A stretch of 40,938 nt of DNA from a virus. Its lineage: Duplodnaviria; Heunggongvirae; Uroviricota; Caudoviricetes. The stretch lies in the IMG/VR virus record IMGVR_UViG_2879742664_000009; one strand, 5' to 3'. A program made the translations under genes and the position numbers. A model generated the notes under the pieces. That model was given only the letters and a program-made list of their open reading frames with translations. It was not told where the DNA came from and searched no databases. Below, one piece after another: positions 25,566-27,061 of this stretch (its first letter is position 1; each line of letters opens with the position of its first letter).

Positions 25566-27061
25566 TATGCAGACTCCTCTGAATACTGAAGACGGAACTG
25601 ATTAACCACGGCAAAGACACGCAGCTGGTTAACATAGTCAGGCGGGAACAGCGTGTTCAGGCGGTTCGGATCGCTGGCATCACGCTCCACAACCAGGTAC
25701 TGCTTAAACAGTTCGTAGTTTTCCACGATCCCCGCACGCTCAAGCTGACGGTAGGTTGCCAGCAGTTCCCCTTTGATCACCGCCGGGGTGACAATCGCCT
25801 GACCGGGACCAAAGCGGGTACCGTCACTGGCAAGCTTGTGACGCCCGTACTTACTGGTAATGACGGATTTCAGTTTGCGCAGTACATACGCGCTGGTATG
25901 CAGCGTCTCACTGTCGAGGTAACTGTTATCCGCAACCCCGTAAGCGTTTTTCCTGTACGTGGTGACATCACGCTGAATGCGTAGTACCCCGCTTTCGACA
26001 TACGCCGTTGCCACGCCATGAGACAGCAGGGTCTGTTGTTCGGTCATCGTGAACCGTTTCCCCTTCGGCGCAGGCAGCATACCCACCAGCTCACCGGTCT
26101 GCGTGGGACGTGCCGGATCGTTGCGGATAAACACCGCTGCGCGGGCGGTACGGCTTGCCGCCAGCTCGTCGGCAGGCGTCTGGGTCTCTTTTTCGTACCC
26201 CGCCAGGGTAATGTGCTGCTGGTTAAACTGGTCACCTGCGGTCACCAGTTCTGACAGCGTGCCGATCTTTGCCGTATACACATGACCATACAGCTGACGC
26301 GCATAGCTCCAGCGACCGCTGGTATCGTTCATCTCGGTCACCAGCGTGTTAACGGAGGCCGTGTCGTTGAACGGCAGGCCGATATAATCAAACGGCTCAT
26401 CCGCCATTGCAGCCACCGCGCCGGTGAGAACCGGAGCACCCGTTCCGGCGGTACCCGTCGCCACGGCAATCTGTACGCCCGCTGGCAGCACTTCGCCCCC
26501 ACCAAAGCCGTAGTAATTGAGGCTGACAGGAATTTCATTCCCACAAAGCCCCTTATGACGCGCGGTCAGTGTGACCACGCCTGCCGAAGATGAAGCCGTA
26601 AACGGCAGGGTCGGAACGGCATTGATGGCATCCTAGATACTGCTGGCAATCATCGTGACGTTATCGCCGTTAGTCACCGGTGCCTGCACGCGGGTACGTC
26701 CTACATACACATTCACCGTGCCGGTTTCGGTTGCCGCCCCGGTCACCGTCAGCGTAACTGTTGCCGCCGCACCTGTGGATTCAGGAACGGCAATCACATA
26801 CAGCTCGCCAAACGGGTCAGTCTGGCGATAAGCCTCGACCATACGCGCCAGCTGACTTCCCGCACCACAAATCTGGCGTGCATAGTCTGCCGACGACATC
26901 AGTACCAGACTGTTGGCAACAATCTCTGCACCGTTATTGGCATGACCAATCAGCAGCGATGCTCCGCTGTCCTGTGCAGTATTCGCCGCCTGGTTATCCA
27001 TTTCCGCATAAAACAACGGAACCAGCGTATTCGACGGAATGGTGTTAAAGCTTATCGTCAT
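25565..27061 (-). pseudogene. phage tail sheath protein interrupted by an in-frame amber codon
   Basis: ORFs 26633-27061 and 25565-26578 are in the same frame, separated only by TAG at 26633-26635. Combined length about 498 codons, as for Mu-type sheath. Confidence 0.75.

What the first reader, a model, noticed from the sequence alone, without database searches (positions are those of the whole stretch)
26600..26640. In-frame amber codon inside the tail sheath gene
The sheath reading frame is continuous from 27061 to 25565 except for a single TAG at 26633-26635 (minus strand). Either it is a recent inactivating nonsense mutation, or expression depends on amber suppression. In both cases it marks relaxed selection on tail function.
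Basis: seen in the sequence. Interest (0 to 1): 0.55.

Follow-up and report, generated by a model that had tools for sequence, protein, structure and literature searches.

The report
Nonsense-mutated sheath gene, decaying Shigella prophage
The stop codon is real: a single C-to-T change turned a glutamine codon into a stop in the tail sheath gene of a broken-down prophage of Shigella flexneri serotype 6, which is ordinary gene decay and not a special way of decoding.

Summary
The minus-strand frame 27061..25565 has 498 codons and one internal stop, TAG at 26635-26633 (codon 143). The closest intact ortholog (E. coli 40EC) differs from it by that one base over 1497 nt: CAG (Gln) became TAG. Five outgroups carry a sense codon there (CAG or AAA).

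It is not a sequencing error. The exact 142-aa truncated product is on 418 public contigs, including named S. flexneri serotype 6 strains. The window is 100% identical over 20.4 kb to the chromosome of serotype 6 strain 64-5500.

The gene lies in the published oacC-carrying SfII-like prophage, which here is a remnant:
- An IS element splits the major capsid gene.
- IS911 truncates the prohead protease gene.
- Terminase, portal, lysis, regulatory and integrase genes are absent from the window.
- The tail terminator gene has a second lineage-wide premature stop (GAA to TAA).
- Other isolates carry further lesions, including a new amber codon in ymfQ.

The window has no tRNA, and amber suppression could not repair the other defects.

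Verdict: a fixed inactivating nonsense mutation in a decaying prophage whose useful cargo (oacC) stays intact. This is ordinary, and the split is already visible in published annotation. Interest is low.

The parts
26633..26635 (-). In-frame amber codon TAG, codon 143 of the tail sheath frame. It derives from CAG (Gln) by a C->T change at window 26635 on the coding strand.
25565..27061 (-). Tail sheath pseudogene: a 498-codon frame related to Mu gpL and the SfV orf11 sheath. With Q restored at codon 143 it has a beta-sandwich domain II at residues 95-196, a subtilisin-like domain at 206-368 and a C-terminal domain at 377-489.
26633..27061 (-). The 142-aa N-terminal ORF left by the amber codon. 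It has no Pfam domain match on its own. The exact product is on 418 public contigs and is listed as SGF_0278 in strain CDC 796-83.
25565..26578 (-). The 337-aa C-terminal ORF that gene callers start at an internal GTG. It contains the subtilisin-like and C-terminal domains but lacks residues 1-161. No clear Shine-Dalgarno sequence lies upstream (my reading of the sequence GGCTTCATCTTCGGCAGGC before the GTG). It is listed as SGF_0277.
27242..27784 (-). Tail terminator gene with a second premature stop: GAA->TAA at 27244-27242, codon 181 of 186. The ancestral stop is at 27226-27224. The truncated 180-aa product is on 403 contigs.
16508..25565 (-). The rest of the tail module: tube, assembly chaperone, tape measure, DNA circularization-like protein, baseplate P/V/gp46/J/YmfQ, tail fibre and fibre assembly. 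All are full length in this window and colinear with E. coli 40EC without gaps.
27781..29878 (-). Head-tail joining genes (tail completion, head closure, connector, a 66-aa ORF) and the 3' part of the major capsid gene. The capsid gene is cut at 29878 by the IS element.
29879..31188 (+). A 1310-bp IS3-family element that interrupts the major capsid gene. The name IS629 comes from the paper on this locus and from my memory. It is one of five copies in the window; the others are at 4020-5329, 12949-14258, 36105-37416 and 39207-40518.
38426..39206 (+). A displaced and inverted fragment holding the 3' part of the prohead protease gene and the 5' part of the major capsid gene. It matches L002 16154-16934 and lies between IS911 and an IS629-like copy. 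About 249 bp of the capsid gene between the two pieces are missing.
35864..38425 (-). An IS911 copy that truncates the prohead protease gene. It is itself interrupted by an IS629-like element at 36105-37416.
15080..16228 (+). Intact acyltransferase-3 gene, convergent with the tail fibre assembly gene. It sits in the position and context of oacC, the serotype 6 O-antigen 3/4-O-acetylase, and is the likely selected cargo of the remnant.
   Evidence: PMC4206707

Best explanation
The TAG is a fixed loss-of-function nonsense mutation (CAG Gln143 -> TAG, one C->T transition) in the contractile tail sheath gene of the oacC-carrying, SfII/SfV-like prophage of the Shigella flexneri serotype 6 lineage. 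Translation stops after 142 residues, inside the beta-sandwich domain II. No product contains both the N-terminal part and the subtilisin-like and C-terminal domains, so no functional sheath is made (this step is inferred). The mutation persists because the prophage is no longer a working virus. Its capsid gene is split, its protease gene is truncated by IS elements, and its packaging, lysis, regulatory and integration modules are gone from the locus. Tail genes therefore drift neutrally, while the O-antigen acetylase gene oacC at the end of the element is kept intact by selection on the host. Shown here: the mutation, its polarity, its fixation in hundreds of isolates, and the other lesions. 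Inferred: absence of sheath protein and of any tail particles, and neutrality of the mutation.
For: The frame has a single internal TAG. The only difference from the intact E. coli 40EC ortholog over 1497 nt is C->T, giving CAG->TAG. Codon 143 is CAG in 40EC, O157 FRIK944, SfI and SfV, and AAA in SfII and SfIV. None of 455 matching complete E. coli records has the TAG-bearing 61-mer. All 12 phage records annotate one full-length sheath gene. The exact 142-aa product is on 418 contigs from NCBI, ENA and Logan assemblies, including S. flexneri CDC 796-83 and CCH060. The window is 100% identical over 20,429 nt to CP026811.1, strain 64-5500, which is a serotype 6 strain (PMC10732043). The amber codon falls within Pfam domain II (residues 95-196), ahead of Phage_sheath_1 (206-368) and Phage_sheath_1C (377-489). 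Further decay in the same element: E181* TAA in the tail terminator gene, the capsid gene cut by a 1310-bp IS, the protease gene cut by IS911, and the fragments inverted. Of 10 coding substitutions derived on this branch, 2 are nonsense, against about 2.8% of random substitutions in this gene. Differences between isolates in the structural genes are 6 non-synonymous and 0 synonymous, including W155* in ymfQ and R318H in the sheath downstream of the amber codon. The locus is the published oacC prophage, and its supplementary table lists the 337-aa and 142-aa sheath ORFs separately (PMC4206707). oacC is intact.
Against: No expression data were available, so absence of full-length sheath protein is inferred and not shown. 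The other roughly 9 kb of tail genes are still intact and gap-free. This could be read as residual constraint, but it is equally expected if the decay is young. On the whole derived branch the ratio of non-synonymous (including nonsense) to synonymous changes is only 4:6, so most of that branch was probably spent under purifying selection before the decay began.
Confidence: 0.93

Rival explanations
1. Expression depends on amber suppression. A supE-type (Gln-inserting) suppressor tRNA in the host, or efficient natural readthrough, decodes the TAG and restores the exact ancestral protein, so the gene is still functional.
For: CAG->TAG is the change that a Gln-inserting suppressor would reverse perfectly. 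Position 143 tolerates Gln or Lys among functional phages. The downstream 355 codons are still open.
Against: The window has no tRNA gene. No functional relative carries TAG here. The same element has an ochre stop in the tail terminator gene and IS-disrupted capsid and protease genes, none of which amber suppression can repair. One isolate has a non-synonymous change in the sheath downstream of the stop, and another has a new amber codon in another tail gene, as expected under drift. From general knowledge, basal UAG readthrough in wild-type enterobacteria is far too low for a protein needed in well over 100 copies per tail.
Confidence: 0.02
2. Sequencing or assembly error: the true base is C and the gene is intact.
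For: It is a single-base difference from the nearest relative.
Against: The identical 142-aa product was called on 418 contigs from independent projects and assemblers: NCBI complete and draft genomes, ENA, and Logan assemblies of separate runs. Six fetched loci carry the TAG. The 2014 paper on strain CDC 796-83 lists the same 142-aa and 337-aa split.
Confidence: 0.005
3. Adaptive inactivation. The nonsense mutation, like the IS hits, was positively selected because it disables a prophage that could otherwise kill the cell or excise, and so locks oacC into the chromosome. The mechanism of inactivation is the same as in the best explanation, but the cause of fixation differs.
For: [quoted passage not shown] Two nonsense mutations lie among few derived changes.
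Against: A sheath defect does not prevent induction, lysis or excision, so it gives no obvious protection. Fixation by hitchhiking or drift in a clonal pathogen with a small effective population explains it as well. The order of events relative to loss of the lysis and regulatory modules is unknown.
Confidence: 0.04
4. The two ORFs are a functional split gene. The 142-aa N-terminal piece and the 337-aa C-terminal piece (restarting at GTG 26578) are both made and assemble into a sheath.
For: Gene callers predict both ORFs. The C-terminal ORF retains the two conserved core domains.
Against: Residues 143-161 would be missing and domain II would be cut in two. No convincing ribosome-binding site precedes the GTG. 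No relative has this arrangement. From general knowledge of contractile sheaths, the N- and C-terminal arms of one chain interlock neighbouring subunits. The element cannot make heads anyway.
Confidence: 0.01

Closest known systems
The oacC-carrying prophage of Shigella flexneri serotype 6 (BMC Microbiol 2014, PMC4206707; strains CDC 796-83 and CCH060)
   Same: It is the same locus. oacC sits next to IS630 and IS629 sequences and is followed by tail and head-tail joining genes that are >95% identical to SfII. The paper's supplementary table lists sheath ORFs of 337 aa and 142 aa, as found here. The exact 142-aa protein carries names from those two strains.
   Different: The paper does not comment on the split sheath gene, the CAG->TAG change, the truncated tail terminator gene or the state of decay of the element, and it calls the element simply a prophage. 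The complete-genome context used here also shows the IS-mediated inversion of the capsid/protease fragment.
Serotype-converting Shigella phages SfII, SfV, SfI and SfIV, with Mu-like contractile tails (sheath similar to Mu gpL)
   Same: The sheath gene is 96.5-97.9% identical at the nucleotide level. The order of structural genes from capsid to tail fibre assembly is the same. An O-antigen modification gene follows the fibre assembly gene, convergently.
   Different: Those phages have one uninterrupted 498-aa sheath gene (codon 143 is CAG or AAA), a 186-aa tail terminator, and intact capsid, protease, portal and terminase genes. The element here has lost or broken all of these.
Pseudogene and IS-driven genome decay in Shigella
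   Same: The pattern is many IS3-family copies, IS-mediated rearrangement, and point nonsense mutations in genes no longer needed. The window alone holds five IS629-like copies, two IS911 copies, another IS3-family transposase gene, and IS630 and IS66 pieces. That this pattern is typical of Shigella comes from general knowledge.
   Different: Nothing differs in kind. This is one more instance.
Laboratory amber mutants of phage structural genes grown on supE hosts
   Same: The lesion type is the same (Gln CAG -> TAG), and a Gln-inserting suppressor would restore the wild-type protein.
   Different: This allele is natural and fixed in a clinical lineage, sits in a defective element, and has no associated suppressor in the window.

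Membership tests
Contractile phage tail sheath protein (Pfam Phage_sheath_domII + Phage_sheath_1 + Phage_sheath_1C; Mu gpL-like) | The three sheath domains occur in order along one polypeptide | tested here: not met
   With Q restored at residue 143, all three domains match above the gathering score (residues 95-196, 206-368, 377-489). As encoded, the 142-aa product matches no domain, and the 337-aa ORF has only the last two. It is a sheath gene by descent, but a pseudogene.
Contractile phage tail sheath protein (Pfam Phage_sheath_domII + Phage_sheath_1 + Phage_sheath_1C; Mu gpL-like) | Gene order sheath - tube - assembly chaperone - tape measure - baseplate | tested here: met
   Pfam families of the neighbouring genes are Tail_tube, Phage_TAC_7, PhageMin_Tail, DNA_circ_N, GpP-like, Phage_Mu_Gp45, GP46, Baseplate_J and Phage_Mu_Gp48. 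The annotation of the orthologous loci agrees.
SfII/SfV-like serotype-converting prophage (functional) | Structural module colinear with and highly similar to SfII, SfV, SfI and SfIV | tested here: met
   The sheath gene is 96.5-97.9% identical. A 12.5-kb multiple alignment with SfII, SfV and SfIV was obtained. The paper reports >95% protein identity to SfII_6-SfII_23.
SfII/SfV-like serotype-converting prophage (functional) | O-antigen modification gene downstream of the tail fibre assembly gene | tested here: met
   The Acyl_transf_3 ORF at 15080-16228 is convergent with the fibre assembly gene. SfII has an acyltransferase gene in the same position. The function of oacC was shown experimentally in PMC4206707.
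SfII/SfV-like serotype-converting prophage (functional) | Complete set of intact head, packaging, lysis, regulatory and integration genes | tested here: not met
   The capsid gene is split by an IS, and the protease gene is truncated by IS911. No terminase, portal, holin/lysin, repressor or integrase gene adjoins the element in the window.
Amber-suppression-dependent or stop-codon-reassigned gene expression | A suppressor tRNA (CUA anticodon) encoded by the element or the host | tested here: not met
   ARAGORN finds no tRNA in the 40.9-kb window. The rest of the host genome could not be searched with these tools.
Amber-suppression-dependent or stop-codon-reassigned gene expression | The in-frame TAG is conserved in functional relatives, or recurs in many genes of the element | tested here: not met
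   None of 455 matching E. coli records and none of 5 outgroups has TAG at this codon. In this window all other structural genes of the element are open to their normal length, apart from one TAA.

The most novel reading that the evidence does not exclude
The tail cluster is not simply dead. Either the nonsense mutations were selected to immobilise and tame the oacC prophage (domestication), or the nearly intact 9-kb tail and baseplate module is still expressed, with rare UAG readthrough or a host suppressor allowing some tail-like particle (tailocin) production in serotype 6 Shigella.
Probability: 0.04. Interest if true: 0.35.

Novelty: already known. Interest (0 to 1): 0.07.

Why it matters
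It matters little beyond correct annotation. The sheath gene of the oacC prophage in S. flexneri serotype 6 should be labelled a pseudogene with an internal stop, not two 'tail sheath protein' genes. The element should be treated as a non-inducible remnant. This explains why oacC, a determinant of the serotype 6 O-antigen relevant to vaccine design, is stably fixed in the lineage and unlikely to be mobilised by this phage. The TAG and the neighbouring TAA could serve as simple lineage markers. Neither bears on translational recoding.

Tried and rejected
- Sequencing error was rejected. The same truncated product is on 418 contigs from independent sources.
- A natural gene boundary was rejected. 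All 12 phage records annotate a single full-length sheath gene, as do all 40 listed rows of the 1,084 E. coli records whose match covers at least 80% of the gene.
- A suppressor tRNA in the window was sought with ARAGORN and none was found. The rest of the genome could not be scanned, because the available genome collection holds one representative per species and the annotated collections exclude Shigella chromosomes.
- I looked for the TAG allele in complete E. coli genomes with a 61-mer. None of 455 matches is identical.
- The promoter and terminator scan of 25-30 kb was uninformative: 0 promoter-like sites against 2.6 expected, and terminator-like sites at chance level.
- The dN/dS signal on the derived branch is inconclusive (4 non-synonymous or nonsense against 6 synonymous). 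The 6:0 split between isolates is suggestive, but the sample is tiny.
- The mSphere 2023 comparison of the archetype strains does not discuss prophages. It was used only to confirm that 64-5500 is serotype 6.
Near-identical intact orthologs already answered the question.

Full report
**1. The observation**

The minus strand of window 27061..25565 translates into 498 codons plus a terminal TAA, with one internal stop: TAG at 26635-26633, codon 143. Mechanical ORF listing breaks the frame into a 142-aa ORF (27061..26633) and a 337-aa ORF that starts at an internal GTG (26578..25565). From the base composition of the stretch about 19 stops would be expected in 497 codons. The other frames contain 19-26 stops, apart from one reverse-strand frame with 4. 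The long frame is therefore a real gene.

**2. What the gene is**

With glutamine restored at codon 143, the protein matches three Pfam families above their gathering scores:
- Phage_sheath_domII at residues 95-196
- Phage_sheath_1 at residues 206-368
- Phage_sheath_1C at residues 377-489

The 142-aa product alone matches nothing, and the 337-aa ORF keeps only the last two domains. The amber codon therefore cuts the protein in the middle of the beta-sandwich domain, ahead of the conserved core.

At the DNA level the gene is 96.5-97.9% identical to the single, full-length tail sheath genes of the serotype-converting Shigella phages SfI, SfII, SfIV and SfV and of related Escherichia phages. It is up to 99.9% identical to prophage sheath genes in 1,097 of 5,426 complete E. 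coli genomes. Neighbouring genes are the usual Mu-like tail set: DUF2635, tube, assembly chaperone, tape measure, DNA-circularization-like protein, baseplate P/V/gp46/J/gp48, tail fibre and fibre assembly.

**3. Which codon was replaced, and in which direction**

The intact ortholog in E. coli 40EC (WP_000155730.1) differs from the window by exactly one base in 1497. That base is C in place of T at window 26635, which makes codon 143 CAG (Gln). O157:H7 strain FRIK944 has the same CAG plus one other difference, and SfI also has CAG.

In a 12.5-kb alignment, codon 143 is CAG in 40EC, FRIK944 and SfV, and AAA (Lys) in SfII and SfIV. It is TAG only in the window and in another isolate of the same lineage. 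The TAG is therefore derived, by a single C->T transition.

A 61-mer centred on the TAG finds 455 complete E. coli records, and none is identical to it.

**4. Not an error: where the allele occurs**

The exact 142-aa product is indexed in 443 blocks of the public assembly collection and is recorded on 418 contigs from NCBI, ENA and Logan assemblies. Names attached to it include Shigella flexneri CDC 796-83 and S. flexneri CCH060. Loci fetched from a complete chromosome, a draft genome and four independent read-run assemblies all carry it.

Window 16633-37061 is 100% identical over 20,429 bases to CP026811.1. Its companion plasmid record identifies the strain as S. flexneri 64-5500, and the literature lists that strain as serotype 6 (PMC10732043). 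CDC 796-83 and CCH060 are serotype 6 as well (PMC4206707). The amber codon is a fixed allele of the serotype 6 lineage.

**5. Context: a prophage remnant**

Window 16533-29878 is colinear with the 40EC prophage, without gaps, at 99.56% identity, running from the fibre assembly gene to the middle of the major capsid gene. The homology stops there at a 1310-bp IS3-family element (29879-31188). This is one of five copies in the window. The paper on this locus calls the element IS629.

The missing upstream piece is the 3' part of the prohead protease gene and the 5' part of the capsid gene. It lies 8.5 kb away, inverted, at 38426-39206, between an IS911 copy and another IS629-like copy. About 249 bp of the capsid gene are lost. 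That IS911 copy (35864-38425) itself carries a nested IS629-like element.

Between the two capsid pieces lie fragments of a different phage (TMP_3, Dit-like), a Y-family polymerase gene and an acetyltransferase gene. No terminase, portal, lysis, regulatory or integrase gene of the SfII-like element is present in the window. The chromosomal neighbours are thiM, apbC and metG.

The tail genes are thus cut off from the head, packaging and late-control functions. The scan found no sigma-70-like promoter between 25 and 30 kb, which is uninformative on its own.

**6. Other signs of decay**

The tail terminator gene carries a second derived premature stop, GAA->TAA at 27244-27242 (codon 181 of 186). 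All five outgroups have GAA. The shortened 180-aa product is on 403 contigs.

Polarised with five outgroups, 12 substitutions are derived on this branch across about 12 kb: 6 synonymous, 2 missense (capsid Y242N and gp46 W119R), 2 nonsense and 2 intergenic. Only about 2.8% of random single substitutions in this gene create stops, so 2 nonsense changes among 10 coding changes is far more than purifying selection would allow.

Within the amber-bearing lineage, all 6 coding differences between isolates in the structural genes are non-synonymous. They include a new amber codon in ymfQ (W155*, isolate ERR5951538) and R318H in the sheath downstream of the stop. The numbers are small, but they fit neutral drift.

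Isolate ERR5951538 has the amber and the ochre stops but an uninterrupted 401-aa capsid gene, and its contig starts within the protease gene about 27 nt before the point where IS911 cuts that gene in the window. This suggests, but does not prove, that the point mutations and the protease disruption came before the IS insertion in the capsid gene.

**7. Why the remnant is kept**

Next to the fibre assembly gene, and convergent with it, lies an intact 382-aa acyltransferase-3 gene (15080-16228). [quoted passage not shown] SfII carries an acyltransferase gene in the same position.

That paper's supplementary table lists 'tail sheath protein' ORFs of 337 aa (SGF_0277) and 142 aa (SGF_0278) without comment. 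The split is therefore already in the public record, although it is not interpreted there.

**8. Mechanism and rivals**

The best explanation, at confidence about 0.93, is an inactivating nonsense mutation fixed by drift or hitchhiking in a prophage that is no longer under selection as a virus. The mutation, its polarity and its spread are shown. The absence of sheath protein and of tails is inferred.

Amber suppression would restore the exact ancestral protein, because a Gln-inserting suppressor reverses CAG->TAG. It is not supported:
- The window has no tRNA.
- No functional relative has the TAG.
- Suppression could not repair the ochre stop or the IS-disrupted head genes.

A functional split gene is unlikely, because domain II is cut, residues 143-161 would be lost, and no evident ribosome-binding site precedes the GTG. 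Adaptive inactivation cannot be excluded, but a sheath defect would not stop induction, lysis or excision.

**9. Comparison and novelty**

By descent this is a Mu gpL-type sheath gene of an SfII/SfV-like serotype-converting prophage. It fails the test of an intact sheath protein, and the element fails the test of a complete prophage. Nonsense and IS-mediated decay of unneeded genes is the well-known pattern of Shigella genomes (general knowledge), and the locus itself has been published. The finding is correct but ordinary.

**10. Verdict**

The suppression alternative is rejected. Interest is about 0.07 and the novelty rating is 'already known'.

Noticed in passing
window 27242-27244 (minus strand): There is a second premature stop in the same prophage. 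Tail terminator codon 181 of 186 is TAA where all five outgroups have GAA, which removes the last 6 residues. The 180-aa product is on 403 contigs, so this allele is also lineage-wide.
   Followed up: yes
window 17905-29878 (minus strand = coding strand): Seven of the 12 substitutions derived on the serotype 6 branch are C->T on the coding strand, and none is G->A (binomial p = 0.016). This may reflect strand-biased cytosine deamination, linked to transcription or replication, but the sample is small.
   Followed up: partly
L012 (ERR5951538), equivalent to window 18026; L008 (ERR6004698), equivalent to window 26109: Other isolates of the lineage carry extra lesions. One is a new amber codon in ymfQ (W155*). 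Another is a missense change (R318H) in the sheath downstream of the amber codon. All 6 coding differences between isolates in the structural genes are non-synonymous.
   Followed up: partly
window 15080-16228 (+): This is an intact acyltransferase-3 gene in the position and context of oacC, the serotype 6 O-antigen 3/4-O-acetylase. It is convergent with the tail fibre assembly gene and is flanked by IS630 and IS629-like sequences. It is probably the reason the remnant is retained.
   Followed up: yes
window 35864-38425 and 36105-37416: The insertion sequences are nested. An IS911 copy is interrupted by a 1310-bp IS3-family (IS629-like) element, and an intact IS911 lies at 10962-12210. Five IS629-like copies in 41 kb show how densely IS elements are packed in this region.
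   Followed up: partly
window 31189-35863 and 2758-4014: There are pieces of at least one other phage: a TMP_3 tape-measure fragment and a Dit-like gene, together with a Y-family DNA polymerase (IMS) gene and a GNAT acetyltransferase gene. A separate tape-measure N-terminal fragment lies next to thiM. IS-mediated rearrangement has probably scattered these pieces.
   Followed up: no
window 38426-39206 (+) versus 29244-29878 (-): The two halves of the major capsid gene lie 8.5 kb apart in opposite orientation, with about 249 bp missing between them. This points to an inversion plus a deletion between IS copies, not a simple insertion.
   Followed up: partly
window 40588-40938 (+): An IS66-family Orf2 (TnpB_IS66) ORF runs to the end of the window.
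   Followed up: no
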